A stretch of 64,000 nucleotides of DNA, from positions 2,064 to 66,063 of the forward strand of contig CAZUOY010000004.1 of assembly GCA_964622315.1 (NCBI GenBank), written 5' to 3'. Position 1 is the stretch's first letter; each line of letters starts with the position of its first letter. Made by a program: the position numbers and the translations under genes. This DNA is from an uncultured Oscillospiraceae bacterium (GTDB taxonomy: Bacteria; Bacillota; Clostridia; Oscillospirales; Ruminococcaceae). Of this stretch, positions 8,216-47,350 are shown piece after piece. Under the pieces are notes generated by a model. It was not told the origin of the DNA. It made no database searches and saw only the letters and a program-made list of their open reading frames with translations.

Positions 8216-8440
8216 CCAAAAAGCGTAAATACCCCTGCTTTGTGCGATATGTTGCAGTTTCTTTTTAATCCGACAAGCATTAGAATAGGGAATTGTACTC
8301 CGTTGGCGGATTGCAGACCTCCCCTTTAGGGACGAAGGGAGCGTGAAACCAAAGGGACGGTACCCACCGTCGTAGCGACGGGTTCTAAACCGACTGCAGA
8401 CGGCAAAGCGGGGATATATTTATGTCCAAAGGAAGTAATT

Positions 8441-9919: not shown

Positions 9920-10155
9920 GTTTAATACCCGGTAGGCAAGGCTACCACAGGGATACGGGTTGCTGCCGCGAAACAGTGGAGACACTGTCAGTTGGTCAGC
10001 AGGTTATGTCGAAAAACAAGGCGTAACCTAACGCAACTTCATTGCCCTGCGAAGCTAAAGCTTGAACGGTGACCGCGAGCGCGCAAGCTGGGCGCTTTGT
10101 GGCATAAAAAAGCACGCTTAGCCGTGCCACCGTTTGAGTGGCGCGGCGTTTTTAT
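9920..10155 (+). promoter_or_regulatory. M-box (ykoK leader) magnesium riboswitch with terminator, upstream of mgtE
   Basis: GGTAGGCAAGGCT..GGGATACGGGTTGCTGCCGCGAAA..GTTGGTCAGCAGG..GCTAAAGCTTGAACGG matches remembered M-box conserved blocks. Terminator GCCGTGCCAC-cgtttga-GTGGCGCGGC plus T run at 10121-10155. Confidence 0.8.
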
Positions 10156-27234: not shown

Positions 27235-27414
27235 ATGAGAGCGACAGGTATAGTAAGAAGGATAGACGACCTCGGACGGGTGGTAATACCTAAGGAGATA
27301 CGGCGCACGATGCGGATTCGCGAGGGCGAGCCGCTTCTGACAACATTGACAAGGGAAGAAAGCTTCTGCATAGCCATCAATAATTTCTACCGCCGCTGCG
27401 TAAAGACGAGCTGA
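27235..27414 (+). pseudogene. spoVT: spoVT 5' segment (AbrB-type DNA-binding domain, codons 1-34) fused to 25 element-encoded codons
   Basis: Translation MRATGIVRRIDDLGRVVIPKEIRRTMRIREGEPL then LTTLTREESFCIAINNFYRRCVKTS-stop. Below the ORF-track length cutoff; found by reading the + strand under the spurious minus ORF 27187..27525. Confidence 0.85.
27323..27336 (+). repeat. attL core (14-bp direct repeat)
   Basis: AGGGCGAGCCGCTT, in the codons for EGEPL of spoVT. Confidence 0.8.
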
Positions 27415-27564: not shown

Positions 27565-28116
27565 TTGATTAATACTATTAATGAAAAGAGTAAAATGATG
27601 CTTGGAAGAGATGAATTGATAGAAAGACTGAAACGATTTGATGAAGATATTTCATTAGCATATGAAAATATAGATGATTTCAATGTTTATATTGTTGGCG
27701 GAAGTGCGCTCATTCTAATGAAATATATCCTTCGCGGTACGCATGATATCGATATACTCAACAAGATGAACTCTGAAATAGTTGAGATTATGGAGAAGTA
27801 CGATATAAACAACAGAGTGTCGGCGTATATTGACAGCTTTGCGGATGACTACAAAAAGCGGGCGGTGGAAATACCAATAGAGGGGTGTAAGGTTAAGTAT
27901 TTTGCCCTTTCGCTTGAAGACCTCGTAATTTCAAAGCTATCCTCAAGCAGACGAACCGATGAAGAGGATATTACAAGCGACGGTGTAATTGAAAACATTG
28001 ATTGGGACACTTTAGATGAAATAGCAAAGACAACAAGAGAAGGTATGCTTAACGACAGAATTGTTGAAGAATTCAATGTGCGATATGAAAACTATGTAAG
28101 GAGGTTTAGAAAATGA
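27565..28116 (+). CDS. Nucleotidyltransferase-fold protein (DUF6036 / MNT-like)
   Basis: VYIVGGSALILMKY..RGTHDIDIL fits the G[GS]-x(9-13)-D-x-D pol-beta NTase motif. A later LEDLVISKLSSSRRTDEEDI block is present. The start may be the internal MML. Confidence 0.5.
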   Translation: MINTINEKSKMMLGRDELIERLKRFDEDISLAYENIDDFNVYIVGGSALILMKYILRGTHDIDILNKMNSEIVEIMEKYDINNRVSAYIDSFADDYKKRAVEIPIEGCKVKYFALSLEDLVISKLSSSRRTDEEDITSDGVIENIDWDTLDEIAKTTREGMLNDRIVEEFNVRYENYVRRFRK

Positions 28117-28640
28117 GACGGCTCACATTCAAGGGCTTTTTGCGACGCTATTTACAGGAGCTCTCTTTAGAGAATACCAGTTCGGTTCATAAGCTTCTTA
28201 TTGAAGCCGAATCGAACAACGCCCGTTTGTTTGAGCCGCTGCTGATATATATCGCTTTGTCGTTTGATAATGACAGACTGAATTCGATTCTTAAAAAAAG
28301 CGAGACACTGAACGATGAATATTCGCGCTACTTCAAAACAGTGTTAAGAGAAAATTTGGAGGAGTACCTCTCAAATTCAAACGATGTTCCGAAGGAGTAT
28401 ACGAAGATTTACAGAAGCTATCTCAGCGTAAGAAACCGCGTCGAGAGCGACAACGACACGAAAGCGAGGATGCGGACAAAAATACTGAAGCTGATAGAAG
28501 ATAAGGGTTACAGTGACTATAGAGTATACAAAAAGCTAAAGATAAACCCGGGTAATTACAGCGCCTTCTTTAAGCAGGGCAAGCTTGACCGGTTGAGCCT
28601 TGATAAGACGAGAGAGGTTTTAAGCTTCGTAAATCACTGA
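28113..28640 (+). CDS. Hypothetical partner protein with C-terminal HTH-like segment
   Basis: ATGA overlap with the NTase gene. C-terminal YRVYKKLKINPGNYSAFFKQGKLDRLSLDKTREVL looks XRE-like. Confidence 0.4.
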   Translation: MRRLTFKGFLRRYLQELSLENTSSVHKLLIEAESNNARLFEPLLIYIALSFDNDRLNSILKKSETLNDEYSRYFKTVLRENLEEYLSNSNDVPKEYTKIYRSYLSVRNRVESDNDTKARMRTKILKLIEDKGYSDYRVYKKLKINPGNYSAFFKQGKLDRLSLDKTREVLSFVNH

Positions 28641-28868: not shown

Positions 28869-29963
28869 TTAATGGTTATCTATGTGTTGGAGTCCTTCAC
28901 ACAAAATGTTCTGTGCGGCGTTTTGGTCGCGGTCGCATTCAAAACCGCAATTCGGGCAAAAGTATACCCTCTGAGAAAGAGAAAAAGTTGGAAGGATGTT
29001 TCCGCAAGCAGAGCATCGCTTTGTGCTCGGAAAGTACTGCGAACACTTAACAAGAATGCCGCCGGTGTCCTTTTGCGCATTGATTATTTTTTTCTCAAAA
29101 CTAACAGGGGCGTTATCGCGCATTTTAGCAGAGAGTGATGGGTTGGTTTCTTGCATTTTGTGAAAATTTAAAGTCTCTGTGCAAATAACATCGTGAGTTT
29201 CCGCGAGTCTCCGAGCTTCTTTGAATTGCCAATCTTTGCGCTGATTCTTAATATGTTGCTCAAGCTTATCGATTTTCCTGAAGGTTTCATTCCAGCGACG
29301 ACTACCTTTTTTCTTATGAGATAGAAGTTCATAAAGAGCATTAAGTCTTTCTCGCTCCGCCGCTCGGAAATGAGGACAGTCTCCCGACATGCCATTAGAG
29401 TCCACGTAAAGACCATCCTGTTTATAATCAAGCCCTATAGCAGTTTTCGTATTAATTGTTTTTTTCGGCGGGTCGTTATCGAAGCAGACAAGGACCGAAA
29501 TATAGTACTGCTTTAAAATCTTTCGATGACAAAGAGTAACCTTAACGATTTTTCCGTCTGTGGGGATAGGACGATGCAAATTGATTTCAACGTCGCCGAT
29601 TCCTTCAAGCTGTATATTTTCTTCGTCTATTAATGAGTACGTAAGGACATAGGATTTGAGTGTCCTCCATTGACCACGCTTATACAGGTAGTGTTTTCCA
29701 AACTTCTCCTCGCTTTTAATAGATTTGACGATATCTTTAATGATAAATTTTGCTGTGATTTCATCCACATCAAATCGGTCGTCAACGTTAAATTCCTCGA
29801 CCCATTGAATACGCTCTGGGAATTCTAATCCGCAATCCCGACAAGCGATAGCGAAGTCAATTATTGTATTGTATAAGAAATCCGCAGCTTTGAATCTCGC
29901 TGAGATAAGATTTTCCTGCTCCTTGGTGGGGAAAATTCTGTATTCAAAGTTTCTATAAAACAT
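28869..29963 (-). CDS. tnpB: TnpB (IS200/IS605-family OrfB, RuvC-like RNA-guided nuclease), no adjacent tnpA
   Basis: N-terminus FYRNFEYRIFPTKEQ. RuvC triad candidates IGLDYK, ICTETLNF and CDRDQNAAQNI. Zinc ribbon CSACG..CPNCG. ATG 29963 follows a GGAGGT RBS. Confidence 0.85.
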   Translation of the reverse strand: MFYRNFEYRIFPTKEQENLISARFKAADFLYNTIIDFAIACRDCGLEFPERIQWVEEFNVDDRFDVDEITAKFIIKDIVKSIKSEEKFGKHYLYKRGQWRTLKSYVLTYSLIDEENIQLEGIGDVEINLHRPIPTDGKIVKVTLCHRKILKQYYISVLVCFDNDPPKKTINTKTAIGLDYKQDGLYVDSNGMSGDCPHFRAAERERLNALYELLSHKKKGSRRWNETFRKIDKLEQHIKNQRKDWQFKEARRLAETHDVICTETLNFHKMQETNPSLSAKMRDNAPVSFEKKIINAQKDTGGILVKCSQYFPSTKRCSACGNILPTFSLSQRVYFCPNCGFECDRDQNAAQNILCEGLQHIDNH

Positions 29964-30075
29964 AATTACCTCCGCAAAAATGTTATACGAATAATCATCT
30001 TGAGAGAATAATAACAAAAATGTGACGTTGTGTCAATACATTTGTTCAAAATATGATTATATTCGTCACAATCGC

Positions 30076-30366: not shown

Positions 30367-30459
30367 AACGTTCAATACAATTAATTAAAACGTTGAATAG
30401 TTCAGCGGTTCATGAGTAATAGTACTAAACTGGAATTATTGCGCAAGGAAGGGCAGACG

Positions 30460-31830
30460 ATGAATAAGCAACAACTCGCAGCAAAAATATGGGAATCCGC
30501 AAATAAAATGCGTTCCAAGATTGAGGCAAATGAGTATAAAGACTATATTCTGGGTTTTATTTTTTATAAATTCCTGTCTGATAAAGAGGTTAAATATCTA
30601 AAGAGTATCGGATACACAGACAGTTCGATAAAACAAGTAGCAGAAGATATCCCGGAAGTAGTAGAGAATGTGCAAAATAACATAGGATACTTTATTGCAT
30701 ATGATAATCTTTTTTCAACATGGCTTGAGATAGGCGCAGATTTTAATGTATCAAATGTTCGTGATGCACTAGCAGCTTTTAATAGGCTTATCAGTTCATC
30801 GCATAAGAAGGTATTTGAAAAGATTTTCGATACTCTGCAAACTGGTCTGTCTAAACTTGGCGATACTTCTGGGACACAGACGAAGTCTATTAGTGACTTA
30901 ATACACCTAATCAAAGACATTCCAATGGATGGAAGACAAGACTACGATGTTCTTGGATTCATCTATGAATATCTAATCTCCAACTTTGCTGCCAATGCAG
31001 GAAAGAAAGCCGGAGAGTTCTACACTCCGCACGAAGTGTCGTTGCTGATGTCGGAAATAGTAGCTAATCACTTAAAGGAAAGGTCAGAAATTAAGATTTA
31101 TGACCCTACCAGCGGGTCGGGGTCATTGCTTATTAATATAGGCAAATGTATAGCAAAATACATGGGCGACGGTGACAGAATAAAGTATTATGCGCAAGAG
31201 CTTAAAGAAAACACATATAACTTGACACGCATGAATTTAATTATGCGTGGAATAATTCCTTCTAATGTTGTTACAAGAAACGGTGACACTCTGGAAGAAG
31301 ACTGGCCATATTTTGATGAAAGTGACCCTGTAGGTACTTATGACCCGTTATATGTTGATGCCGTTGTTTCAAATCCCCCCTATTCTCAAAACTGGAATCC
31401 CGGAGATAAGGAGAACGACCCAAGATATAAGCGTTATGGTGTCGCACCTAAGGGAAAAGCAGATTACGCATTTCTGTTGCATGACCTGTACCACATTAAA
31501 CCTGATGGAATTATGACCATTGTTCTTCCGCATGGAGTGTTGTTCCGCGGTGGCGAAGAAGCTGCCATTCGTAAGAATTTGATTGAGAACAACAATATAG
31601 ATACTATAATTGGTTTGCCTGCGAATATTTTCTTTGGTACCGGCATACCCACAATTATCATGGTATTAAGACAAATCCGTAGCAACAATGATGTGCTTAT
31701 AATTGATGCTTCAAAAGGATTTGAAAAGGTAGGAAAGAACAATAAGTTACGAGCTTCGGACATTAAAAGAGTTGTTGATGTTGTAACGAAGAGAGAAACT
31801 GTTGATAAGTACAATAACAAGCGATTTTAG
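30460..31830 (+). CDS. hsdM: Type I restriction-modification methyltransferase subunit HsdM, 3'-truncated and orphan (no hsdS/hsdR)
   Basis: HsdM_N block LAAKIWESANKMRS..EYKDYILGFIFYKFLSD, AdoMet motif IYDPTSGSGSLL, catalytic SNPPYS. Ends ..ETVDKYNNKRF where family members normally continue about 40-50 aa (..NDYNLNI.RYV). Confidence 0.75.
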   Translation: MNKQQLAAKIWESANKMRSKIEANEYKDYILGFIFYKFLSDKEVKYLKSIGYTDSSIKQVAEDIPEVVENVQNNIGYFIAYDNLFSTWLEIGADFNVSNVRDALAAFNRLISSSHKKVFEKIFDTLQTGLSKLGDTSGTQTKSISDLIHLIKDIPMDGRQDYDVLGFIYEYLISNFAANAGKKAGEFYTPHEVSLLMSEIVANHLKERSEIKIYDPTSGSGSLLINIGKCIAKYMGDGDRIKYYAQELKENTYNLTRMNLIMRGIIPSNVVTRNGDTLEEDWPYFDESDPVGTYDPLYVDAVVSNPPYSQNWNPGDKENDPRYKRYGVAPKGKADYAFLLHDLYHIKPDGIMTIVLPHGVLFRGGEEAAIRKNLIENNNIDTIIGLPANIFFGTGIPTIIMVLRQIRSNNDVLIIDASKGFEKVGKNNKLRASDIKRVVDVVTKRETVDKYNNKRF

Positions 31831-33551: not shown

Positions 33552-33586
33552 CTTAATATGAAGCATCTATATTGATGATTCAATTA

Positions 33587-33595
33587 TGCTATAAT
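33587..33595 (+). promoter_or_regulatory. Extended -10 promoter element (TGcTATAAT) upstream of the orphan two-gene cassette
   Basis: TGCTATAAT read directly, followed by the inverted repeat ATATCACT-caataca-GTGATAT. Confidence 0.4.
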
Positions 33596-33889
33596 ATGTA
33601 TATCACTCAATACAGTGATATGAAAGGTTACGAATTTTGTAGATGGGACAATGTCAACGAAGTCTTGTTTGATGGGACACACATTGAAATAGAACAACAC
33701 GAGTGTCTTGATTGAAGAGGCAGAAGCTTTCATGAGTAAATGTTAAGTACAAACTCAATACTGCTTGGATGCAAGTTATGTGGGTATAGTTACAAACGAC
33801 TAAATCACAAAAACATTAAGGTAGGGAATGTAGATAGGATGCGTTCTCAACATTAACCATTTGAGATTATCCCTCACTAAGGAGAAATT

Positions 33890-34870
33890 ATGAATAATAG
33901 TAAGGACGACACATTAAACTCTTTTCTTGATAGGTCTGAAAAAAAGATAAAAACGTTTAAATATAGTGTAACTGATAAACAATGGAATGAACTTGTAGGG
34001 TTTTATAATTACCTTACTTTTTGGGTTAATGGTTATCAACAGTTGCTTTATTATCTCCGAGAAAGACAGAATCTTGTTGAATTACATCGCACTGGTATAC
34101 CTATCACCTTATATATACATGATAAATACCACGAGGCAACAGCAGAGGTAATAAGTCAGTATCGTACTTTTTTTGAACATAGTAAGCAATTGCTAAATGC
34201 TTTTGTAGTTTTGCTCGGTCATATAATTGCAGACCATGAATTCAACAGAGTAAAAACCAGTAGTTTCGGAAAATGTATAAATTCATTTAGTAATGTTTCA
34301 GAATTCAATAATAAGTGTTTGAATAAACTTAAGGCATTATTTACTAAAGTTGGAAAGTTGATTGACAATACTATCTGTGAATATCGTGATAAACATGTTG
34401 AGCACGCAAAACTGTTAGGAGTAGGCGTAGCTCGAACATTCGGAGACTCGATGGTGTTAATTCACGATAAAGATGAAACACCTCCAATGTTATATCCCAT
34501 AGAAAAGGTAAAAGGTGTTTCGCGAATGTCAATATTCATTGATTACATAGGGATTCAGAGTACAAATGGAGGTACAGACTATATCTATCATATTAAGTCA
34601 AACAAAAATAAAGGAGATAGCGTTAGAACTGGTGAATGCATTGGACCCGCTTATGTAGATAGTTCTGGTATACACTTTGAAGAATATGGAAAGCACTATC
34701 ATGAATTTTCGTCAGAGAGTCGCAAGGTGCTCTATCCAGTTGCTTCACCAATACATAAAGGAACCACTTCACCGAAATCCGATGATTCTTTTGATATAAT
34801 GTGTTGTTTTATAGAAGAATGTTTGGGTATACTTTCTGAGTATGTCAAATCCTCCTCTGACAAAGAATAG
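33890..34870 (+). CDS. Hypothetical protein A of orphan cassette (helical N half, beta-rich C half)
   Basis: Strong RBS AAGGAGAAATT before the ATG; AT-rich codon usage. The only motif-like element is YRDKHVEH (R-x5-H) at aa 165-172. Confidence 0.6.
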   Translation: MNNSKDDTLNSFLDRSEKKIKTFKYSVTDKQWNELVGFYNYLTFWVNGYQQLLYYLRERQNLVELHRTGIPITLYIHDKYHEATAEVISQYRTFFEHSKQLLNAFVVLLGHIIADHEFNRVKTSSFGKCINSFSNVSEFNNKCLNKLKALFTKVGKLIDNTICEYRDKHVEHAKLLGVGVARTFGDSMVLIHDKDETPPMLYPIEKVKGVSRMSIFIDYIGIQSTNGGTDYIYHIKSNKNKGDSVRTGECIGPAYVDSSGIHFEEYGKHYHEFSSESRKVLYPVASPIHKGTTSPKSDDSFDIMCCFIEECLGILSEYVKSSSDKE

Positions 34871-34967
34871 TTTCTCCAAGCATTGTGTCCGAATGTCTAT
34901 TAATCTATATACAAGAAGCGAAATGTTATAGAAGAGTAAAAAATCAGTTTAACAGAAAGGGAAATTT

Positions 34968-36095
34968 ATGAAAAGCAACGAATTAATTGAAGGGTTTGCT
35001 AATTGTTTCATCTGTATTAGTTATAAATTGCATGATGATACTTACGGGGATTATCGACATTCAACAGCTTGTACTTTTACCAAATATGACCGGAATATTA
35101 ACATGTTTCCATCAGTTGAATCAACTAAAAGCAAAATGGAAATTGAAAAACTCTTGGACCATTTATACTCTATTCTTCCTGCGTTAAGAATAATTATAGA
35201 TAGAGATATTTACTTGCAAAGAGTTTTGCATTCCGTTGATACTATTTGGAGAAGCATCTTTAACGGTTTAAAAAACGCTTTTGATAAAGATATTTTAAAT
35301 GATGTTTCTATTATGTTCCCCTTTCTAAGAGCACATGGTTTGGGTGGGCATCCGTTGCTGTCTTTTCCATTGATTGTAAATTATCGAACGGGAGAACAAG
35401 AATTATGGGTAATTGAACCAATTCCAACAATTATTGACAATTCTCGCGAAAATGGAACTGAAGAAGCTATGTCTTTTGATACATTAGAAGACTACACGAT
35501 AAATTGTGACACATTAATGAGAACATCTCGTTTTATAGATTCATCTATATACAGTTACCCTCTGGATAATCCAAATGCTGACTGTAAGCATGTGCAGATT
35601 CATGAATCCTATATTTTGAAAAAACTATTAGAACACAGTTTTAAAATAGAATTAGGTGACGATAGAGTTAAAAAATGTGTAACAACCCAAGGCTTAGTTA
35701 CACCCACAAGAATGAAGAAATCATCGAGTATTACAATAACTTTCAATTCTGAAACTATCTTGATGGGAATTAACCAAGTGGAGTTTGATGCCTACCGACA
35801 AAAAGCAATAAAAGCCATCGTAGAAACCTGCATATATCGCAGCGTTTATTTTGGATTTATGGAAACTGAACAAATCACTCAATCTGAAAGTACTTCAATT
35901 CGAATTTACGAACAACTTAACAGAGCACGTTTTCTGAAGAAAATAGCTAAACCAAATTCTGTGGTTTTACCTCCAGCAAGCATAGAAAGCATAAATAGTT
36001 ATCTCCAAATAGAACAAATGAAAAATGTGCGCAATGCTTCTGAAATTGCAGGCACTCTTTTGGGAGCTGCATATAATCAAATTGAACCACCTTAA
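34968..36095 (+). CDS. Hypothetical protein B of orphan cassette
   Basis: RBS AAAGGGAAATTT before the ATG. Same strand and composition as protein A. No recognisable motif. Confidence 0.6.
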   Translation: MKSNELIEGFANCFICISYKLHDDTYGDYRHSTACTFTKYDRNINMFPSVESTKSKMEIEKLLDHLYSILPALRIIIDRDIYLQRVLHSVDTIWRSIFNGLKNAFDKDILNDVSIMFPFLRAHGLGGHPLLSFPLIVNYRTGEQELWVIEPIPTIIDNSRENGTEEAMSFDTLEDYTINCDTLMRTSRFIDSSIYSYPLDNPNADCKHVQIHESYILKKLLEHSFKIELGDDRVKKCVTTQGLVTPTRMKKSSSITITFNSETILMGINQVEFDAYRQKAIKAIVETCIYRSVYFGFMETEQITQSESTSIRIYEQLNRARFLKKIAKPNSVVLPPASIESINSYLQIEQMKNVRNASEIAGTLLGAAYNQIEPP

Positions 36096-36775: not shown

Positions 36776-36804
36776 TTTACATTTTACCACGGCGGATATA
36801 TAAT
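36776..36804 (+). promoter_or_regulatory. Promoter of the Y-family polymerase gene
   Basis: TTTACA - 17 nt - TATAAT. Confidence 0.55.
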
Positions 36805-36819
36805 TGAAACACAAAAAAA

Positions 36820-36831
36820 GAACAAATGTTC
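36820..36831. promoter_or_regulatory. LexA (Cheo) box GAAC-N4-GTTC
   Basis: aGAACAAATGTTCt lies 15 nt downstream of the -10. It matches the Firmicute LexA operator consensus CGAACnnnnGTTCG at the core. Confidence 0.7.
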
Positions 36832-36849
36832 TCACTGGAGCTGATTTTT

Positions 36850-38106: not shown

Positions 38107-38343
38107 ATGGATTACAAAATCTATGTGAGAGTTAAGTCGGAAACCGACACGGACGGAAATATCGTTCCGACGCATATCATTTGGTCAGATGACCGAGAGT
38201 TCCCGATAGATAGAGTAATTGATGTCAGAAAAGCCGCCAGCACAAAAGCGGGCGGTCTTGGGCTTCGATATACCGTTCGTATTGACAATAAGGAGCGATT
38301 CCTCTATTACGAAGCTCCACGCTGGTTTGTTGAGAGGAAGTAG
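38107..38343 (+). CDS. Small conserved-looking protein following the polymerase gene
   Basis: RBS AGGAGGCGG; 78 aa; ends RYTVRIDNKERFLYYEAPRWFVE. Polymerase-accessory role is inferred from position only. Confidence 0.5.
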   Translation: MDYKIYVRVKSETDTDGNIVPTHIIWSDDREFPIDRVIDVRKAASTKAGGLGLRYTVRIDNKERFLYYEAPRWFVERK

Positions 38344-38703: not shown

Positions 38704-40509
38704 ATGGGATATCAAGCAAAATTGCAGAAAGTACATATTAAAAACTTTAGGTCAATAGTTGACGAAACGATTTATTTTGATAATTTTAATATTTATGTGG
38801 GACTCAATGATTGTGGAAAATCAAATGTTCTGAAAGCATTAAATCTTTTTTTTAATGGGCAAACTGAAAATGGTCATTTGCTTGATTTCCCCCGAGATTA
38901 TGCTCAACATGGTAAGACGGGAAAAGGAAAAGCTAAAGAAATTGTAATAGAAATCAGCCTAATTATACCAGATAATTTTAAAGAGGCCGGAATAAAATCT
39001 TGGAAAAAAGTTTGGCGCGATAATGATTTGTTTAGTGATAACTTATCTGAAATTGTTGATGAATATTCAAAATGTACAACTTTACTTAAAAGAATCAAGT
39101 TTGAGTATATTCCTGCCGTAAAAAGTGAATCTTTCTTTCAAGAACTCTTACTTGAATTATACAATTCAATGACAATTTCCGCAGATAGTGCACTCCATAC
39201 AGCAAACTTGGAGTATTCTAAAGCTCTAACTGAGCTTACTCAAAATTTAAGTGAAAATGTCAAAAATAAAGTAGGTTTAGACTCAAGCGTAATGATGCCT
39301 GACAAGCTTTCAGTTCTATTTAGAAATTTAAAAATTAATACAAAAGATGAAAACATTAAGGATATTGATTTAAATCATCGTGGTGATGGGATAAAAGCTC
39401 GCCATATACCATCAATATTATTAACAATTGCCCATAATATTAAGAACTCAAGAAAAAGGAATTCTGTTGATTATTCATTTATATGGGGCTACGAAGAACC
39501 AGAAAATGGAGTTGAGTTTTTTGCTTGCTCGCAATTAGCTGATGAACTGTACTCATATTCAAAAGAGTTACAATTAATAATAACAACCCATTCACCAGCC
39601 ATATATTCAAAAAGCAATATGCAAGACTGCAAATGCTATTATGTGTATAAAACAGAATGTGGTGACTCAAAGTACGATACAAATTATAGTTTTATTGAGT
39701 TAAATAAAAATATAGGCTTAATGCCATTAATTGCTCCTTACGTTCAAGATTTTCAAAAAGTGATAGAAGAGAGGAGCAGTGCAATAAGTTCTTTAGAAGA
39801 AGAGAACAAGCGCATAAATCAGATGACAAATCGTGTAATTCTATATACAGAGGGAAAAACGGATGTTAAATATCTCAAAAAGGCTTTTGAAACATTTAAA
39901 GAATATGGAGATGTCTCGCATAGAATTGAGTATTATGATATAGAAAATGCACGGTTTACAGGGGACGGTGAACTCAAGAAAATTTTTGATTACTTACAAA
40001 AAGGTAATGATTCCAATATTAAGATTATGATGTTCGATAGGGATGTTGAAGACAAAATTATAGAGTACGAATTTGAAAAGGGACAAAACAAAGTGTATCG
40101 CTTTAATATTCCTATTCCACCCCACCGTAAATCTAATGACAAGATTTCAATAGAACATTTTATTGAAGATGATAATTTGTCAGTGGTTGATACGATGGGA
40201 CGACGCTTGTTCATGGCAAAAGATTTCGATTATAAGGGAATCTCATTAGATGGAAAATACACATTTAACCATGCTAAGAATCCGTTAGACGCTAAATACA
40301 ATCCTCTGGAAATAATTAATGGTTCTGCAGATAAAAAAGTCTTTAGTGTTAATCCTAACGATAATAAAAACTATGCAATGTCCAAGGATGACTTTGTTAA
40401 TCATATAATTAATGAGGATGAGGGCTTCTGCTTTGATTTATCTGTATACAAACTAATCTTAGATTTAATATGCAGAATTATTGCAGATGCAGATACGAGT
40501 AAAACATAA
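38704..40509 (+). CDS. OLD-family-like ABC ATPase fused to a Toprim-like C-terminal domain (class-1 OLD or fused PARIS AriA-AriB-like)
   Basis: IKNFRSI..VGLNDCGKSNVLKAL (Walker A), YEEPENGV (Walker B), IITTHSP (H-loop). C-terminal VILYTEGKTDVKYLK and IMMFDRDVED (Toprim-type E ... DxD). 601 aa, AT-rich. Confidence 0.65.
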   Translation: MGYQAKLQKVHIKNFRSIVDETIYFDNFNIYVGLNDCGKSNVLKALNLFFNGQTENGHLLDFPRDYAQHGKTGKGKAKEIVIEISLIIPDNFKEAGIKSWKKVWRDNDLFSDNLSEIVDEYSKCTTLLKRIKFEYIPAVKSESFFQELLLELYNSMTISADSALHTANLEYSKALTELTQNLSENVKNKVGLDSSVMMPDKLSVLFRNLKINTKDENIKDIDLNHRGDGIKARHIPSILLTIAHNIKNSRKRNSVDYSFIWGYEEPENGVEFFACSQLADELYSYSKELQLIITTHSPAIYSKSNMQDCKCYYVYKTECGDSKYDTNYSFIELNKNIGLMPLIAPYVQDFQKVIEERSSAISSLEEENKRINQMTNRVILYTEGKTDVKYLKKAFETFKEYGDVSHRIEYYDIENARFTGDGELKKIFDYLQKGNDSNIKIMMFDRDVEDKIIEYEFEKGQNKVYRFNIPIPPHRKSNDKISIEHFIEDDNLSVVDTMGRRLFMAKDFDYKGISLDGKYTFNHAKNPLDAKYNPLEIINGSADKKVFSVNPNDNKNYAMSKDDFVNHIINEDEGFCFDLSVYKLILDLICRIIADADTSKT

Positions 40510-41495: not shown

Positions 41496-42884
41496 ATGTT
41501 TATCGGAAGAAACAGCGAGCTTGATACGCTAAATAAGCTTTACAGTTCCGAAAGGTTCGAGTTTGCGGTTATCTACGGCCGCCGCCGCGTCGGGAAAACC
41601 GCGCTTATTAATGAGTTTATCAGCGACAAAAGGGCGATATACTTTATGGGCGTTGAGAGCAACGAAAAACAGAACCTCGAAAATTTCAGTAAAAGCGTGA
41701 TTGAATTCAGTTCGGGGATAGCCGCCGAGACTTCGTTTTTATCGTTTCAGCACGCTATTGAGTATGTTTTTGAGCTTGCGAAAAAGGAACGGATTATACT
41801 CGCGATTGACGAGTATCCGTATGTTGCGCGGGCGTCAAAAAGTCTCGCTTCTACGCTCCAGTTACTGATTGACAAAAACAAAGATACATCGAAGCTGATG
41901 CTTATACTCTGCGGCTCTTCTATGTCATATATGGAGGACAACGTTCTCGCTTATAAGGCACCGCTGTACGGAAGAAAAACCGCGCAGATAAAGCTCCTTC
42001 CCTTTAGCTTTTGGGAAACCTGCAGATATTTTACCGGCTTTTCCGCTGAGGACAAGGCGCTGATATACGGTATTGTCGGAGGAACGCCGCAGTATCTTCT
42101 TCAGATGAACGATAGCCTGAGCGTAGCGGAGAATATAAAGAACACTTTTTTGAATCCGACCTCGTCGCTGTATGAGGAGTCCGAAAACCTTCTGAAGCAA
42201 GAGGTTCGCGAGCCGTCGCTTTACAACGCGATTATCACGGCGATAGCTAACGGAGCTACTCGAATGTCTGAAATATCAGGCAAAGTGGGCGAAGACACCA
42301 ACGTATGCTCGACCTATCTCAAGAATCTCACAACTCTCGGAATAGTTAAAAAGGAAACACCTTACGGCGAAAAGGTTTCTCACAAATCGATATACTCTAT
42401 TGAAGACAATATGTTTAAGTTTTGGTATCGCTTTGTGCCGGAGAACAATTCGTTAATAGCGCGCGGAGCGGCGGAGCTTGCATACAAACGCATTGAGCCG
42501 CACCTTAACGAATATATGGGAAAGATATTTGAGGATATCTGCGCTCAATACCTATGGCGTCGGCTTCTTTCGGGGAGCTGTCCCGTTCGGTTTTCTTCTC
42601 TCGGCAGATGGTGGGGAAACGACCCGAACGAGAAAAAGCAGACAGAGATAGATATTATGGGCGAGCAGGACAAGAGTACTGCGCTTTTTGCGGAGTGTAA
42701 ATGGACGAACGAAAAGGTAGACGAAGAGGTCCTCGGCACGATTATAAAGCGAAGTAAACTTTTCGGCTATACGAAGACGCACCTGTTTTTATTTGCTAAG
42801 AGTGGGTTTACAAAAAGCTGTGAGGTCAAAGCCGCCCAGCTCGGAAATGTCACGCTTGTTAATTACAAAGATATGATTGAATGA
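41496..42884 (+). CDS. ATP-binding protein (archaeal-type ATPase domain plus DUF234)
   Basis: FIGRNSEL..L.......FAVIYGRRRVGKTALI Walker A, ILAIDEYPY Walker B, C-terminal EIDIMGE..ALFAECKW DUF234-like block. Confidence 0.8.
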   Translation: MFIGRNSELDTLNKLYSSERFEFAVIYGRRRVGKTALINEFISDKRAIYFMGVESNEKQNLENFSKSVIEFSSGIAAETSFLSFQHAIEYVFELAKKERIILAIDEYPYVARASKSLASTLQLLIDKNKDTSKLMLILCGSSMSYMEDNVLAYKAPLYGRKTAQIKLLPFSFWETCRYFTGFSAEDKALIYGIVGGTPQYLLQMNDSLSVAENIKNTFLNPTSSLYEESENLLKQEVREPSLYNAIITAIANGATRMSEISGKVGEDTNVCSTYLKNLTTLGIVKKETPYGEKVSHKSIYSIEDNMFKFWYRFVPENNSLIARGAAELAYKRIEPHLNEYMGKIFEDICAQYLWRRLLSGSCPVRFSSLGRWWGNDPNEKKQTEIDIMGEQDKSTALFAECKWTNEKVDEEVLGTIIKRSKLFGYTKTHLFLFAKSGFTKSCEVKAAQLGNVTLVNYKDMIE

Positions 42885-43433: not shown

Positions 43434-43664
43434 GAGGCAGCGATAAAGACTATTGTTTAGTGTTTAGTTTTTCGCTTGCCGTATCCCCGAAAATGCTATA
43501 ATATATACATATAAAATAAATAAAAAACAAAACCGTTACGCAAATACTGCGTAGCGGTTATTTTTTTGCTCTTTTTTCGGAGCACATATTACTTTTTAGA
43601 AAGGACGGGTGTAAACAAATAGCAAGTGAATACATACAAGCAATAATGGCAATAATTGTATTGA

Positions 43665-44603: not shown

Positions 44604-46775
44604 ATGGCGAAAGCTACAGAGAACATCGCGGCATATATGCGTATTTCGGTAGATACCGAAGCGGATAGAGATAACACTTCTATTGAAAACCAACGAGCTA
44701 TAATTAAAGCCTATATAAAGAATAGGTTTTCCGATGTACAGACGACATATTATGAAGACCGCGACCGCAGCGGATACACCTTCAAACAGCGAGAAGGATA
44801 TCAAAGCATGCGGCCGCTATTACTAAGCGGAAAACACAACATCTTAATAGTAAAAGACCTTTCACGATTTTCCCGCAGAAACAGCCGCGGACTTGTTGAG
44901 CTGGAGGATTTGCGTGACGCGGGCGTCAGGATTATTTCGATTGATGACTGTATCGACTATCCGACCCGTGATGAGTGGCAGCAAATTCAGTTTAAATTTT
45001 TGATGAATGAAATGCCGGTAACTGATGCGTCTCGCAAGGTGAAAAGCGTTATTAACCGCCGACAGAACGACGGCAAATGGATTTGCAGCGTTCCCTTCGG
45101 TTATGTCATAACTAATACAAAAAACATGACGGTATCCGTTGATGAAAAATCTGCCGAGATTGTCAGATTAGTTTTTAATAAGTACCTTGAAGGTTGGGGC
45201 TATAAAAAAATAGCGAATTTTTTAACTGATAAGAATATGCCGACTCCGCGTGCTGTTGAAAAAGAATTCAGAGAAGCCGACGGAACTGTTACAAACATAA
45301 AACCCAAGGATACATGGTCGATTGCAACGGTTCAGGGAATATTGAAAAACGATTTCTATATCGGAACCCTCCGCCAGAGAAAGTACACTCGAAAGAATAT
45401 CAACGGTAAGGATATGAAGCTTGACGAGGAAGAAAACATAGTCTTTGAAAACCATCACGAGGCTATTATAGATTATCGGACCTTTTCAAAAGTTCAGCAA
45501 CAGCTGGTTAGCCGTTCGAAAAACAACTATCGAGGTGTTTCGAAGTATCCGACGGTATATTCGGGATTCCTTTTCTGCGGCGACTGCGGAAGTCCGATGT
45601 TCTCCATGAGCCGTCCCGATTTGCCTGCGGCGTATACATGCGGAAGCTATCATAGACGCGGCAAAAAGGGATGCTCATCACATCACATCAGAGTCGACGC
45701 AATGGACAGCATCCTTAAAATGTATGTGAAAAAAGTATTAGAGAACTCAAAGGAAATGATAGCCCAGCTTGAAAAGTCCATTGCTCAAGAGCCTGATAAG
45801 CTTAAATCAAGCACCTCGACTGTTGAAGCGTTGGAAAAGGACCTTGAGAAAGCTAAGGATGTTTTGAAGAATACCCTGAAGCAGAAGGTTAAAGAAATTA
45901 CCGCGCACCCCGACATGGAGGAAGTGCTTTCGGAAACCTTTGATTCAATGATTGAAGAAGCTGACAAAAAAATCAAGGGAATCGAGAATCAAATTACTCT
46001 CGTGGCCGATAAGCGCAATGTGATTATTCACACCAACAGAATTGCGAAGACAGCGCTTGAGATTTTCAACGACATTATTAATAAGCCTGCGTTAGACAAA
46101 AACGATTTAGAGGTTATAATCAATCGTATGGTTGTTTACGAGGACCATGTTGATATTGAGCTAAAGTCCGATATTGATATGCTGATAAAGACCGGCTCTC
46201 TCACAGAGGAAAGGGAAATGGCAACGGCAACGGTAAATTTTAAGTGGGACACCGACAGTATCTTAAGAGCCAAAGCAGTCCTAAAACAGCGAAATAAGAG
46301 GGACGAGGCTATCGGTGTCAATGTTATCAGTAAGGGCGAGCCGCTTGAGATTTTCACAAGCGGCGACGGAGACGTTATCTTCAGAAAATACTCGACCATG
46401 AACGAGCTTGCAAACTGCGCTGATAAGTATGCCGAGGTGCTGTTTTCGTCAATAAAGCAGCCCGTCATCGTCTGCGACAGGGACGCGGTATGCGCGGCGT
46501 ATCCCTCAAAGAAGAAGGAGCTTGTCGGCAAGCGGATAAGCGAGGAGCTTGAGGAAAAGATACGTGGGCGCGATTCCGCGGTGATGGGCGAGGGTATTTT
46601 CTGCCTTAGCAACTATAAGGAAAAGGCGAGCGTGGTCGTACCCGTGCGAGCGGCTGGAAGCGCTATAGGATGTATCGCGGTCTTACAGTCCGATTCGTCA
46701 AAAAAGGTGGAAGACAAGGACATCTCTATGCTCGAAACCGCGTCTAAGCTGCTCGGTGCGCAGACGGAGAGCTGA
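44604..46775 (+). CDS. Large serine recombinase; the ORF continues without a stop across attR into the spoVT 3' segment (chimeric 723-aa ORF)
   Basis: Resolvase N domain (AAYMRISVDTE..NQ), recombinase domain, zinc ribbon CGDCGSPM..CGSYHRRGKKGC and coiled-coil region. The last ~142 codons are SpoVT C-terminal sequence. Confidence 0.88.
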   Translation: MAKATENIAAYMRISVDTEADRDNTSIENQRAIIKAYIKNRFSDVQTTYYEDRDRSGYTFKQREGYQSMRPLLLSGKHNILIVKDLSRFSRRNSRGLVELEDLRDAGVRIISIDDCIDYPTRDEWQQIQFKFLMNEMPVTDASRKVKSVINRRQNDGKWICSVPFGYVITNTKNMTVSVDEKSAEIVRLVFNKYLEGWGYKKIANFLTDKNMPTPRAVEKEFREADGTVTNIKPKDTWSIATVQGILKNDFYIGTLRQRKYTRKNINGKDMKLDEEENIVFENHHEAIIDYRTFSKVQQQLVSRSKNNYRGVSKYPTVYSGFLFCGDCGSPMFSMSRPDLPAAYTCGSYHRRGKKGCSSHHIRVDAMDSILKMYVKKVLENSKEMIAQLEKSIAQEPDKLKSSTSTVEALEKDLEKAKDVLKNTLKQKVKEITAHPDMEEVLSETFDSMIEEADKKIKGIENQITLVADKRNVIIHTNRIAKTALEIFNDIINKPALDKNDLEVIINRMVVYEDHVDIELKSDIDMLIKTGSLTEEREMATATVNFKWDTDSILRAKAVLKQRNKRDEAIGVNVISKGEPLEIFTSGDGDVIFRKYSTMNELANCADKYAEVLFSSIKQPVIVCDRDAVCAAYPSKKKELVGKRISEELEEKIRGRDSAVMGEGIFCLSNYKEKASVVVPVRAAGSAIGCIAVLQSDSSKKVEDKDISMLETASKLLGAQTES
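46333..46346 (+). repeat. attR core (14-bp direct repeat)
   Basis: AGGGCGAGCCGCTT, identical to 27323-27336 and in the same codon phase. Confidence 0.8.
46347..46775 (+). pseudogene. spoVT: spoVT 3' segment (linker plus GAF-like C-terminal domain, codons 35-176)
   Basis: EIFTSGDGDVIFRKYS..KYAEVLF..VIVCDRD..SKKKELVGKRIS..GSAIGCIAVLQS..ETASKLLGAQTES parallels the remembered B. subtilis SpoVT sequence. Confidence 0.85.
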
Positions 46776-46981: not shown

Positions 46982-47350
46982 ATGATTGATTACACGCTTG
47001 GCGCGGTTGAAGGGAAATTCGCAGATATTGTTTGGAGCCACGAGCCGCTCTCCTCGCGCGAGCTTGCGCTTTTTGCCGAAGAAACGCTTTCGTGGAAGCG
47101 GACGACCTCGTATACGGTGCTTCGTAAGCTCTGCGACAAGGGGCTTTTTCAAAACAATAACGGCACGGTAACGTCGATTGTCAGCCGTGACGAATACTAC
47201 GGCTCGCAGGGGCGGCAGCTTATAAGCGAGGCGTTCGGCGGTTCTCTGCCGCTCTTTCTTGCCGCGTTTACAAACGGGAAACAGCTTACTGCGGAAGAAG
47301 CGGCGGCGCTTCAAAAGCTTATTGATGGCAGTAGGGAGGGGCAAGCTTGA
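46982..47350 (+). CDS. BlaI/MecI/CopY-family transcriptional repressor
   Basis: 122 aa winged-helix protein (SYTVLRKLCDKGL) directly upstream of an M56 protein, with start/stop overlap. Confidence 0.8.
   Translation: MIDYTLGAVEGKFADIVWSHEPLSSRELALFAEETLSWKRTTSYTVLRKLCDKGLFQNNNGTVTSIVSRDEYYGSQGRQLISEAFGGSLPLFLAAFTNGKQLTAEEAAALQKLIDGSREGQA

What the first reader, a model, noticed from the sequence alone, without database searches (positions are those of the whole stretch)
33890..36095. Orphan two-gene cassette with no recognisable domains inside a defence-type neighbourhood
Two co-oriented genes (326 aa and 375 aa) have strong RBSs and a 97-bp spacer, and their composition is markedly AT-rich. 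They sit between a recombinase and an SOS cassette, 2.6 kb from an OLD/PARIS-like gene, in an element that also carries TnpB, RM and TA-like remnants. I recognise no family for either protein. Protein A has a helical N half with YRDKHVEH (R166-x5-H172, compatible with a HEPN Rx4-6H RNase motif at nt ~34385-34405) and a beta-rich C half. Protein B shows nothing I can name. This context and novelty are typical of uncharacterised anti-phage systems, and this is my best candidate for an undescribed system in the window.
Basis: inference. Interest (0 to 1): 0.78.

Follow-up and report, generated by a model that had tools for sequence, protein, structure and literature searches.

The report
Two unrelated orphan cargo genes, adjacent
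The two genes are real and sit in a defence-rich mobile element, but they are not a conserved pair: each belongs to its own rare, unannotated family that elsewhere always occurs alone, and one of them carries a hidden cell-wall-peptidase-like (M23) domain.

Summary
**Observation:** confirmed. ORF A (33890-34870, 326 aa) and ORF B (34968-36095, 375 aa) are intact, co-oriented, 97 bp apart and about 33% GC. Neither hits Pfam, NCBIfam, PADLOC or PHROGs.

**Pairing:** the two-gene-system reading fails. An exhaustive HMMER search found about 55 cluster representatives for A and 9 for B. About 50 A-family loci never hold B, and 7 B-family contexts never hold A.

**Protein A:**
- The C-terminal half is a divergent M23/LytM-type domain (hhalign 96%, E 1.4e-8, clean controls). 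It keeps the YxH and HxH histidines but not HxxxD, and has no export signal.
- The YRDKHVEH motif is invariant across the family (R166 and H172 in 65/65; D or N after R), which fits the HEPN sequence signature.
- The HEPN fold is untested. In one secreted relative the motif travels with the M23 module.

**Protein B:** it resembles nothing known. It is solitary, diverges fast at a ychF hotspot, and twice follows a DNA methyltransferase.

**Setting:** both genes are cargo of a 19-kb serine-recombinase element that splits spoVT. The element also carries an OLD-family gene, PDC-S27, a truncated HsdM and TnpB.

**Verdict:** two independent candidate single-gene conflict genes, of moderate interest.

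The parts
33587..33595 (+). Extended -10-like element TGCTATAAT, about 295 nt upstream of the A start; candidate promoter of the A-B transcript
   Evidence: Read directly from the sequence. It is part of an 18-nt repeat with a second copy at 43493. The consensus scan did not list it because it has no -35.
33600..33621 (.). Perfect palindrome ATATCACT-N6-AGTGATAT immediately after the -10 element; operator-like
   Evidence: One search found a single perfect match in the window. 17 of 100 shuffles gave a match with up to 3 mismatches, so significance is modest.
33879..33884 (+). RBS of A (AAGGAG, 5-nt spacer to the ATG)
33890..34870 (+). Gene A, 326 aa. Soluble protein of a sparse family (about 66 members collected) with a helical N half and an M23-like C half
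   Evidence: No TM or signal segment (maximum KD19 1.25).
34118..34132 (+). H77-D-K-Y80-H81 (family consensus HExYH): invariant His/Tyr/His in the N-terminal helical domain
   Evidence: H77 64/64, Y80 64/64, H81 63/64. Position 78 is E (42), D (17) or other, so this is not a classical zincin HExxH.
34385..34405 (+). R166-D-K-H-V-E171-H172 (family consensus YR[DN]KxIEH): HEPN-like R-x5-H motif
   Evidence: R166 65/65, residue 167 D (58) or N (7), E171 64/65, H172 65/65. HEPN motif definition from PMC3710099.
34541..34708 (+). Core of the M23/LytM-like domain (residues 218-273), including H234 (the YxH histidine), the KGD-x-IG turn, D257, H262 and H269-x-H271 (HxH)
   Evidence: hhalign against an M23 profile: 95.5-96%, E 1.4e-8 to 4.5e-9, with clean controls. 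The top PDB profile hits are M23 peptidases. 12 of 39 members hit Pfam PF01551 below threshold.
34871..34967 (+). 97-bp A-B spacer with no terminator-like hairpin; A and B are probably co-transcribed here
   Evidence: no terminator between A and B
34955..34962 (+). RBS of B (GAAAGGGA)
34968..36095 (+). Gene B, 375 aa. Soluble protein of a very sparse family (9 cluster representatives) with no detectable relationship to any known family. Invariant residues P118, F119, E150, P153, R185, S187, Y197, Y215, G242
27322..27335 (+). Left junction (attL core AGGGCGAGCCGCTT) of the 19-kb element that carries A and B; lies inside the 5' fragment of spoVT (27235-27335)
46332..46345 (+). Right junction (attR core, identical 14-mer). 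The 3' part of spoVT follows in frame with the large serine recombinase ORF 44604-46775

Best explanation
**What they are.** A and B are two independent, intact cargo genes. They are adjacent, and probably co-transcribed, in the accessory region of a 19-kb serine-recombinase element inserted in spoVT. They are not the two halves of a conserved system.

**Where the families occur.** Each represents its own rare, unannotated family that everywhere else occurs alone. The contexts include phages, prophage ends, IS-flanked spots, defence islands and variable chromosomal hotspots.

**Protein A.** A is a soluble two-module protein.
- Residues about 185-300 are a divergent M23/LytM-type domain. It keeps the catalytic-type histidines H234 and H269-x-H271, plus D257 and H262. 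It lacks the canonical HxxxD zinc motif and any export signal.
- Residues about 55-175 are a helical domain with invariant H77/Y80/H81 and an invariant R166-[D/N]-x4-H172 motif. This motif satisfies the sequence definition of a HEPN RNase site.

**Inferred mechanism for A.** A acts alone in the cytoplasm as a conflict effector of the abortive-infection or exclusion type. The His-rich M23-like module binds metal or a peptide ligand, and gates or completes a hydrolytic site that includes R166 and H172. An RNase of HEPN type is the most likely chemistry.

**Inferred role for B.** B acts independently as a fast-evolving solitary effector, possibly directed at nucleic acid.

**Shown versus inferred.** Shown: the genes, the families, the non-co-occurrence, the M23 homology, the motif invariance and the island. 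Inferred: the defence role and both mechanisms.
For: **Families exist**
- Exhaustive phmmer with A+B found about 55 A-type and 9 B-type cluster representatives.

**No co-occurrence**
- HMM scans of all six-frame ORFs found A without B in L009 and L011, in 10 viral or genome loci and in 38 metagenome loci totalling 316 kb.
- The same scans found B without A in L004, L005 and L008 and in L025, L072, L074 and L076.
- No other gene is shared among the B loci. Among the A loci only L011 shares anything with the window, namely the SOS cassette.

**M23 module**
- PDB profile search top hit is LytM 3nyy (E 0.0064), followed by other M23 chains.
- 12 of 39 members hit PF01551, and the matches cover profile positions of about 31-95 of 96.
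- hhalign against a genuine M23 profile gives 96%, E 4.5e-9. Reversed and 20 column-shuffled controls all give P of 0.1 or worse.

**Motif conservation**
- See the counts over 66 members.

**HEPN-type features**
- R-x5-H with D or N after the R.
- The P0021 hit to HEPN_Cthe2314 spans residues 57-178, the whole conserved N core.

**Mobile-element and defence contexts**
- A is an opposite-strand solitary gene between DUF3800 and ParB/ParA, near TerL, in gut phages. It is flanked by IS3 in L009.
- B follows a lysis cassette, a repressor and a Dam methylase in L005. It lies between a TIR_2 protein and an AAA_13 ATPase, beside a KAP NTPase, in L008.
- At the same site downstream of ychF in L025 and L074, B is 37% identical while YchF is 87% identical.
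- The window island contains an OLD-type gene, PDC-S27 and HsdM.
Against: - No phenotype data exist, and neither family matches any PADLOC model.
- The HEPN fold is untested. AF2 single-sequence models had pLDDT of about 33-35, and the Pfam HEPN hits are far below threshold and seen in only 2 of 39 members.
- P0057, a 648-aa secreted protein, matches the A family only over HMM positions 121-321. There the R..H helix travels with the M23-like module and without H77/Y80/H81, which is awkward for a complete four-helix HEPN domain.
- A and B share an identical unusual composition (GC 0.335, GC3 0.26) and lack a terminator between them. This is compatible with joint acquisition and local cooperation.
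- The closest B relative (P0003, 38%) is known only from a 1.8-kb contig, so its wider context is unseen.
- B in L074 sits among housekeeping genes with no defence neighbours.
Confidence: 0.55

Rival explanations
1. One reading: A and B together form a new two-gene anti-phage system, with A as a HEPN RNase effector and B as its sensor or partner.
For: - They are adjacent and co-oriented, with a 97-bp spacer and no terminator.
- Their GC and GC3 are identical.
- They lie in a defence island.
- The R-x5-H motif is invariant.
Against: - There are zero co-occurrences in about 50 A loci and 7 B contexts.
- The closest B homologue has no A-like coding sequence in the 404 bp upstream, where the 3' third of A would lie if the arrangement were conserved.
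- Each family is solitary in phages and in hotspots.
Confidence: 0.1
2. A is a cell-wall enzyme, that is a true M23 peptidoglycan endopeptidase such as an accessory lysin or a spore- or cortex-related hydrolase, and has nothing to do with immunity. The R..H motif is part of its metal site, replacing HxxxD.
For: - M23 homology.
- Presence in phage genomes.
- P0057 has a signal peptide and Fn3-like region fused to the module made of residues 121-321, which includes YRDKEIEH.
- The greedy hhalign extension places M23 H-x3-D over A's D167-x3-E171 and M23 'DP' over S294-P295.
- The host is a spore former.
Against: - A has no signal peptide, TM segment or wall-binding domain.
- It is not in the lysis cassette. 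It is a lone opposite-strand gene next to ParAB.
- HxxxD is absent. H192 is present in only 48 of 63 members, and no Asp is conserved at +4.
- The N-terminal fragment alone shows no similarity to M23 (P 0.61), so the HxxxD equivalence has no statistical support.
- Residue 167 alternates between D and N, which is typical of HEPN and poor for a zinc ligand.
Confidence: 0.15
3. B is the nuclease-like partner of a DNA methyltransferase (a restriction-type enzyme), stranded here without its methylase.
For: - In 2 of 7 contexts a DNA methyltransferase lies directly upstream in the same orientation, and the two belong to different classes. L005 has a D12-class Dam. L076 has an ORF with the HPTxKP and FGGSGST motifs at a 103-bp gap.
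- A truncated HsdM lies 3 kb upstream in the window.
- B diverges fast, as restriction enzymes do.
Against: - 5 of 7 contexts have no adjacent methylase. A restriction enzyme without its methylase would be lethal unless it depends on modification.
- There is no PD-(D/E)xK, HNH or other nuclease motif among the invariant residues.
- There are no PADLOC or Pfam hits.
Confidence: 0.12
4. The ORFs are decaying or non-functional remnants in a degenerate element.
For: - The element contains several remnants: a truncated HsdM, a frameshifted integrase-like ORF pair and a lone TnpB.
- Some A homologues in metagenomes are split by frameshifts.
Against: - Both ORFs are full length relative to their families and keep every invariant residue.
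- Both have good RBSs.
- The identical proteins recur in three independent sequencing runs.
- The frameshifted homologues come from contigs with coverage of about 1-2x.
Confidence: 0.04

Closest known systems
Peptidase family M23 (LytM/lysostaphin-type zinc endopeptidases; Pfam PF01551)
   Same: - The C-terminal half of A aligns to the second half of the M23 domain: the strand carrying the YxH histidine (H234), the G-x-x-V-x-x-G-D-x-I-G turn, and HxH (H269/H271).
- hhalign gives 96%, E about 1e-8. The best PDB profile hits are LytM, DipM, zoocin A and an M23 peptidase.
   Different: - All Pfam scores are below the gathering cut-off (best 21 bits against 28.7).
- The HxxxD zinc motif is not conserved.
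- There are extra invariant residues (D257, H262, F263).
- A has no signal peptide or wall-targeting domain and is fused to a conserved helical N domain.
- It occurs as a solitary cargo gene on mobile elements, not in lysis or division contexts.
HEPN superfamily, in particular the Cthe_2314-like family (Pfam PF18730) and single-gene HEPN Abi proteins (AbiD/F/J/U2/V) described in PMC3710099
   Same: - Invariant R-x5-H with D or N after the R, at the end of a long predicted helix.
- Size of about 300-350 aa, solitary gene, and mobile-element or defence-island contexts.
- A weak hit of P0021 residues 57-178 to PF18730 positions 18-133.
   Different: - Scores are far below threshold and seen in only 2 of 39 members.
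- The motif is followed by a beta-rich M23-like domain, not by a fourth helix.
- Three further invariant residues (H77, Y80, H81) are not HEPN features.
- In P0057 half of the helical domain is missing while the motif is kept.
Gene-intervening (skin/SPbeta/vfbin/vrin/gin-type) elements of spore formers; this applies to the element that carries A and B, not to A and B themselves
   Same: - A large serine recombinase lies at one end.
- The insertion is precise, inside a sporulation gene, with a short direct repeat (14 bp).
- The prophage-like content is degenerate.
- Excision would restore the reading frame (literature).
   Different: - The target is spoVT, which none of the papers found mentions as an insertion target.
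- By established knowledge of B. subtilis, spoVT is expressed in the forespore. The described elements interrupt mother-cell genes.

Membership tests
Peptidase M23 (PF01551) | Score at or above the Pfam gathering cut-off (28.7 bits) | tested here: not met
   The window protein has no hit. The best family member scores 21 bits, and 12 of 39 members hit below threshold.
Peptidase M23 (PF01551) | Profile-level homology to the M23 catalytic domain | tested here: met
   hhalign gives 95.5-96%, E 1.4e-8 to 4.5e-9 over 53-55 columns. Controls all give P of 0.1 or worse. PDB profile hits are M23 chains.
Peptidase M23 (PF01551) | HxH motif and the upstream catalytic His (YxH strand) | tested here: met
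   H269-x-H271 and H234 align to the M23 HxH and YxH. All three are 63/63 conserved.
Peptidase M23 (PF01551) | HxxxD zinc-binding motif in the first half of the domain | tested here: not met
   There is no conserved HxxxD between residues 172 and 234. H192 is present in only 48 of 63 members and no Asp is conserved at +4. The N-terminal part including YRDKxIEH shows no similarity to M23 on its own (P 0.61).
Peptidase M23 (PF01551) | Extracytoplasmic location (signal peptide, TM anchor or holin-dependent lysis context) | tested here: not met
   Maximum KD19 is 1.25 and the N-terminus is hydrophilic. The gene is not in lysis cassettes. Only the atypical relative P0057 has a signal peptide.
Peptidase M23 (PF01551) | Zinc-dependent peptidoglycan or peptide cleavage | not testable with these tools
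   This needs biochemistry.
HEPN superfamily | Conserved R-x4-6-H motif | tested here: met
   R166-x5-H172 is conserved in 65/65 members. The definition is from PMC3710099.
HEPN superfamily | Polar residue (N, D or H) immediately after the R | tested here: met
   Residue 167 is D in 58 members and N in 7.
HEPN superfamily | Four-helix up-down bundle with the motif at the end of helix 3, followed by helix 4 | tested here: inconclusive
   The AF2 model has pLDDT 34.8 and is unusable. Its DSSP read-out puts the motif at the end of a long helix, but a beta domain follows. P0057 keeps only the last part of the helical region.
HEPN superfamily | Significant profile similarity to an established HEPN family | tested here: inconclusive
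   PF18730 is hit by 2 of 39 members, with a best score of 15.6 bits against a cut-off of 27.1, though the match spans residues 57-178. The PDB profile search of the N domain returns only coiled-coil noise.
HEPN superfamily | Upstream conserved acidic residue, typically E-x3-[KR], in helix 2 | tested here: inconclusive
   E/D78 (59 of 64 members) and E/D64 are conserved, but neither is followed by K or R at +4.
HEPN superfamily | Metal-independent RNase activity | not testable with these tools
   This needs biochemistry.
Multi-gene anti-phage defence system (generic operational definition) | Components conserved together across genomes | tested here: not met
   There are no co-occurrences in about 50 A loci and 7 B contexts.
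Multi-gene anti-phage defence system (generic operational definition) | Match to a known or candidate system model | tested here: not met
   PADLOC-DB gives no hit for A or B at E up to 10.
Multi-gene anti-phage defence system (generic operational definition) | Enrichment next to known defence genes | tested here: inconclusive
   - Yes in the window, in L008 (TIR_2, AAA_13, KAP) and in L072 (an MNT-type NTase).
- A phage or moron context in L005 and L016.
- None in L074.
- There are too few long contexts for a statistical test.
Multi-gene anti-phage defence system (generic operational definition) | Protection against phage on expression | not testable with these tools
   This needs an experiment.

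The most novel reading that the evidence does not exclude
A and B are each the founding member of a new single-gene immunity family.
- A would be a cytoplasmic enzyme in which an M23-type metallopeptidase-like module is coupled to a HEPN-like R-[DN]-x4-H site, for example an RNase gated by a protease or peptide sensor. No paper in the searched library describes this domain combination.
- B would be a fast-diversifying effector with an entirely new fold.
Probability: 0.2. Interest if true: 0.65.

Novelty: new variant of a known kind. Interest (0 to 1): 0.4.

Why it matters
- If A protects against phage, it would add a domain combination not found in the defence literature searched here: an M23/LytM-like module working inside the cytoplasm, joined to a HEPN-like motif. 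It would also give a function to a family of about 66 unannotated proteins carried by gut Oscillospiraceae-type phages and other mobile elements.
- B would be a fold-level unknown.
- The practical value of this check is negative but useful. The cassette should not be tested or catalogued as one two-gene system. Each gene should be tested alone, and the mutagenesis targets should include H77/H81 and H234/H269/H271 as well as R166/H172.
- The element that carries the genes, a serine-recombinase island splitting spoVT, may be of wider interest than the cassette itself.

Tried and rejected
1. **Direct library scans.** Pfam, NCBIfam, PADLOC and PHROGs scans of A and B gave nothing.
2. **Word-indexed search of 5.8 billion proteins.** It returned only self-hits for A and for B, and only two hits for the A profile. 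The index misses relatives this distant.
3. **AF2 single-sequence models.** Both proteins gave pLDDT of 33-35 and are unusable, so no fold search was run. This also spent the structure cap before an alignment was available.
4. **PDB searches.** phmmer and profile searches gave nothing for B or for the A N domain beyond coiled-coil noise.
5. **tblastn of A and B against phages and plasmids.** Nothing significant.
6. **Related-loci runs that failed or found nothing.** The full A and B alignments were too divergent to search with. B is absent from IMG/VR.
7. **HEPN paper supplement.** It holds no Cthe_2314 sequences, so no profile-profile HEPN test was possible.
8. **Equating YRDKxIEH with the M23 HxxxD motif.** Rejected as unsupported. 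It appears only in the zero-confidence greedy extension of hhalign, and the N fragment alone gives P 0.61.
9. **LexA control of A.** Rejected. There is no good LexA box upstream of A, whereas a perfect one precedes the polymerase.
10. **Structured or known RNA in the 338-nt leader.** Rejected (Rfam gives nothing, and the fold has z = -1.4).
11. **A conserved small divergent gene upstream of A.** It is present in L011, L014 and L016 only and is absent from the window.
12. **Source names for the proteins.** None are recorded.
Full report
**1.

The window has two intact co-oriented ORFs at 33890-34870 (326 aa, A) and 34968-36095 (375 aa, B). A 97-bp spacer separates them. Both have purine-rich RBSs: AAGGAG at 33879-33884 and GAAAGGGA at 34955-34962.

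Their GC is 0.337 and 0.334, with GC3 of about 0.26. The surrounding island is at 0.40 and the chromosomal flanks at 0.49-0.51. No terminator-like hairpin lies between A and B or after B.

Neither protein hits Pfam, NCBIfam, PADLOC-DB or PHROGs at permissive thresholds. Neither hits PDB sequences or phage and plasmid records. The exact proteins recur only in one NCBI contig and three short assemblies from related sequencing runs.

**2. Both genes belong to real but sparse families**

An exhaustive phmmer search of 1.84 billion cluster representatives, using A and B concatenated, returned 69 proteins.
- About 55 match A. They are 300-350 aa long and 21-34% identical.
- Nine match B. The closest is P0003 at 38% identity, and the rest are at about 20-25%.

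Alignments show strongly conserved cores. For A, counts were taken over 66 members, including homologues recovered from loci:

| Residue | Conservation |
|---|---|
| R166 | 65/65 |
| Position 167 | D in 58, N in 7 |
| E171 | 64/65 |
| H172 | 65/65 |
| H77, Y80 | 64/64 each |
| H81 | 63/64 |
| K99 | 62/64 |
| N103 | 63/64 |
| H234, H262, F263, H269, H271 | 63/63 each |

The ORFs are therefore functional genes under selection, not chance frames.

**3. The pair is not conserved**

I scanned all six-frame ORFs of every recovered locus with HMMs of both families.

A-family loci, none of which holds a B-family gene:
- L009, where A is flanked by IS3.
- L011-L013.
- One Oscillospiraceae MAG and nine IMG/VR contigs.
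- 38 metagenome contigs totalling 316 kb.

B-family contexts, none of which holds an A-family gene:
- L004, L005-L007 and L008.
- L025, L072/L073, L074/L075 and L076.

In L004, the closest B relative has 404 bp of upstream sequence with no A-like coding capacity. If the window's arrangement were conserved, the last third of A would lie there. All-against-all BLAST found no other shared partner for either family.

**4. What A is**

*The C-terminal half is M23-like.* The motif pattern YVH...G..V.KGD.IG...D....HF.KYG.H.H.F resembles the second half of M23/LytM peptidases, and the tools agree.
- The family profile's best PDB hits are LytM 3nyy (E 0.0064), an M23 peptidase, DipM and zoocin A.
- 12 of 39 members hit Pfam Peptidase_M23 below threshold. 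The matches cover profile positions of about 31-95 of 96.
- Against the window's own genuine M23 domain (BlaR1-M23 protein 47347-48798, Pfam E 9e-31), hhalign gave E 1.2e-4.
- Against a profile of nine genuine M23 domains, hhalign gave 95.5-96% probability and E 1.4e-8 to 4.5e-9.
- The controls were clean. The reversed profile gave P 0.1, 20 column-shuffled profiles gave P of 0.2 or worse, family B gave 0.6, and the A N-terminal fragment gave 0.61.

H234 aligns with the M23 YxH histidine and H269-x-H271 with HxH. The canonical HxxxD zinc motif is not conserved, and the protein has no signal peptide or TM segment.

Two of 39 members give weak hits to HEPN_Cthe2314. In P0021 the hit spans residues 57-178, the whole conserved core.

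Several points count against a canonical HEPN domain.
- The scores are far below threshold.
- A beta domain follows the motif, not a fourth helix.
- The 648-aa secreted protein P0057 matches the family HMM strongly (168 bits) but only over positions 121-321. That stretch is the last helix with YRDKEIEH, the M23-like domain and the C-terminal helix, without H77/Y80/H81.

HEPN membership therefore stays inconclusive. A composite metal-dependent site remains a live alternative.

**5. What B is**

B has no detectable relationship to anything. The family profile finds nothing in PDB, and all nine members scanned against Pfam give only scattered noise. It is soluble. Its contexts are as follows.
- L005: after a prophage lysis cassette, a LexA-like repressor and a Dam methylase.
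- L076: 103 bp after an ORF with N4/N6-methyltransferase motifs.
- L008: between a TIR_2 protein and an AAA_13 ATPase, beside a KAP NTPase.
- L072: after a pentapeptide-repeat protein, an MNT-type nucleotidyltransferase and a 94-aa ORF.
- L074 and L025: alone, downstream of ychF among housekeeping genes. Between these two loci the flanking YchF fragment is 87% identical but the B proteins only 37%.

That last contrast indicates rapid divergence or replacement at a hotspot, which is typical of conflict genes. It is a hint and not proof.

**6. Contexts of A**

- In the abundant human-gut lineage of phage-like contigs, A is a lone gene on the opposite strand to its neighbours. It lies between a DUF3800 gene and ParB/ParA, a few kb from the large terminase and a VG15-like protein.
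- In L011 it lies about 1 kb from a Phd/YefM antitoxin and a cassette of a Y-family polymerase, a LexA-like S24 protein, SRAP and PARG. The polymerase (44%), SRAP (37%) and a small ORF (37%) are homologous to the window's cassette. This association was not seen in any other A locus.
- Upstream of the window's A there is no LexA box. A perfect one (AGAACAAATGTTCT, 36819-36832) precedes the polymerase.
- A's 338-nt leader starts near an extended -10 (TGCTATAAT, 33587-33595), followed by a perfect 8+8 palindrome (33600-33621). No known RNA is present and the fold is not unusual.

**7. The island**

The low-GC region is a discrete 19,010-bp element bounded by a 14-bp direct repeat, AGGGCGAGCCGCTT, at 27322-27335 and 46332-46345. 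It interrupts spoVT.
- The AbrB-type N-terminus (MRATGIVRRIDDLGRVVIPKEIRRTMRIREGEPL) lies at 27235-27335.
- The remainder (EIFTSGDGDVIFRKYS..., SpoVT_C, E 5.7e-25) is fused in frame to the end of the large serine recombinase ORF 44604-46775.

Besides A and B, the cargo is as follows:
- a DUF6036 NTase plus HTH pair;
- TnpB;
- a CI-like HTH;
- a truncated type I methylase;
- a frameshifted integrase-like ORF pair;
- the SOS cassette;
- an OLD/AriA/GajA-type ATPase-Toprim;
- the PADLOC candidate system PDC-S27.

The 'defence-type neighbourhood' is therefore real.

**8. Most likely mechanism, and what is inferred**

*Shown:*
- A and B are independent families.
- A has an M23-like module and an invariant HEPN-type motif.
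- Both families are mobile-element or hotspot cargo.

*Inferred, at about 0.25-0.4 each:*
- A works alone in the cytoplasm as an abortive-infection or exclusion effector. Its His-rich M23-like module binds metal or a peptide ligand, and controls or completes a hydrolytic site built around R166 and H172.
- B works alone as a rapidly evolving effector, possibly directed at nucleic acid, given its two methylase neighbours.

*Rivals:* a local two-gene system, a true wall peptidase, a restriction-type role for B, and gene decay. These are scored separately in the report.

**9. Novelty and verdict**

No paper in the searched library links M23/LytM domains with HEPN or with defence islands. Neither family has a name in any source.

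The finding is a true pair of uncharacterised genes. The 'undescribed two-gene system' reading is not supported. What remains is two candidate single-gene conflict families, one with an unusual domain combination. I rate it a new variant of a known kind, with interest 0.4.

Noticed in passing
window 27235-27335, 27322-27335, 44604-46775, 46332-46345: The whole low-GC island is a 19,010-bp element inserted in the sporulation regulator gene spoVT. It is bounded by a 14-bp direct repeat, AGGGCGAGCCGCTT, and excision would restore ...RIREGEPLEIFTSGDGD.... None of the gene-intervening-element papers found mentions spoVT as an insertion target. By established knowledge spoVT is a forespore (sigma-G) gene, whereas the described elements split mother-cell genes. 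Excision in the forespore would remove the element from the germ line.
   Followed up: partly
window 44604-46775: The large serine recombinase ORF (Resolvase, Recombinase and Zn_ribbon_recom domains) has no stop before the right junction. It reads in frame into the 3' part of spoVT (SpoVT_C at residues 601-722). Its C-terminus therefore differs between the integrated and the excised forms, which means the recombinase gene spans the attachment site.
   Followed up: partly
window 36776-36832: A strong promoter-like site (TTTACA-17-TATAAT, 11 of 12 matches) is followed by a perfect LexA-type palindrome, AGAAC-N4-GTTCT, that overlaps the start of the Y-family polymerase gene. SRAP is divergent, and a 78-aa ORF (38107-38343) follows the polymerase. 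A homologous cassette lies beside the A homologue in L011.
   Followed up: partly
window 41496-42884: An ATPase_2 + DUF234 protein matches the PADLOC candidate system PDC-S27 (E 5e-66). It is a second candidate defence gene in the same island.
   Followed up: no
window 38704-40509: A solitary 601-aa OLD-family ATPase-Toprim protein hits AriA, Old and GajA models at the N-terminus and RT-Toprim models at the C-terminus. No PARIS AriB or Gabija GajB partner is apparent next to it.
   Followed up: no
window 43493-43567 (also 33586-33603 and 39633-39650): An 18-nt repeat containing an extended -10 (ATGCTATAAT...) occurs upstream of A and again at 43493. About 30 nt after the second copy comes a good intrinsic terminator (AACCGTTACGC-N7-GCGTAGCGGTT plus a T run, 43531-43567). 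This could be a very short transcript, or a terminator and promoter lying back to back.
   Followed up: no
window 27565-28640: A DUF6036 nucleotidyltransferase (E 6e-44) and a 175-aa protein with a weak C-terminal HTH overlap by 4 bp. The arrangement looks like a toxin-antitoxin pair, at the left end of the element.
   Followed up: no
window 28869-30017 (-) and 30412-31830: A lone TnpB (OrfB_IS605 and Cas12f1-like TNB domains) has no TnpA. A type I HsdM matches only the first half of an 857-position PADLOC model, and no HsdS or HsdR lies nearby. Both look like remnants.
   Followed up: no
window 47347-48798: Just outside the element lies a BlaR1-type M56 sensor fused to a genuine M23 peptidase domain (Pfam E 9e-31). 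I used it as the positive control for the M23 comparison.
   Followed up: partly
window 8229-8418 and 9921-10078: A 6S RNA (77 bits) and an M-box magnesium riboswitch (99 bits) show that the flanking DNA is chromosomal Firmicute sequence.
   Followed up: no
P0057 / L024 107-2053: A 648-aa protein from a groundwater metagenome has a signal peptide, an Fn3-like region and a coiled coil. These are fused to the A-family module covering HMM positions 121-321 (168 bits). It is a secreted relative that lacks the H77/Y80/H81 part. The contig has only about 2x coverage, so a chimera cannot be excluded.
   Followed up: partly
L025 1-1361 and L074 8773-11080: B homologues occupy the same site downstream of ychF in two genomes. 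The flanking YchF fragment is 87% identical but the B proteins only 37%. The locus behaves as a variable hotspot.
   Followed up: partly
L058, L060, L064, L066, L069, L071: Several A homologues in gut metagenome contigs are split over two or three frames. The contigs have about 1-2x coverage, so these may be assembly errors and not pseudogenes.
   Followed up: no
L011 1081-1254 (-), L014 6562-6762 (-), L016 9692-9895 (-): A small ORF (consensus MYE.LC..L.SIIPNI.WD.EG..AIK.A..IL) is conserved and divergently oriented, immediately upstream of A homologues of one subfamily. It has no Pfam hit and is absent from the window.
   Followed up: partly
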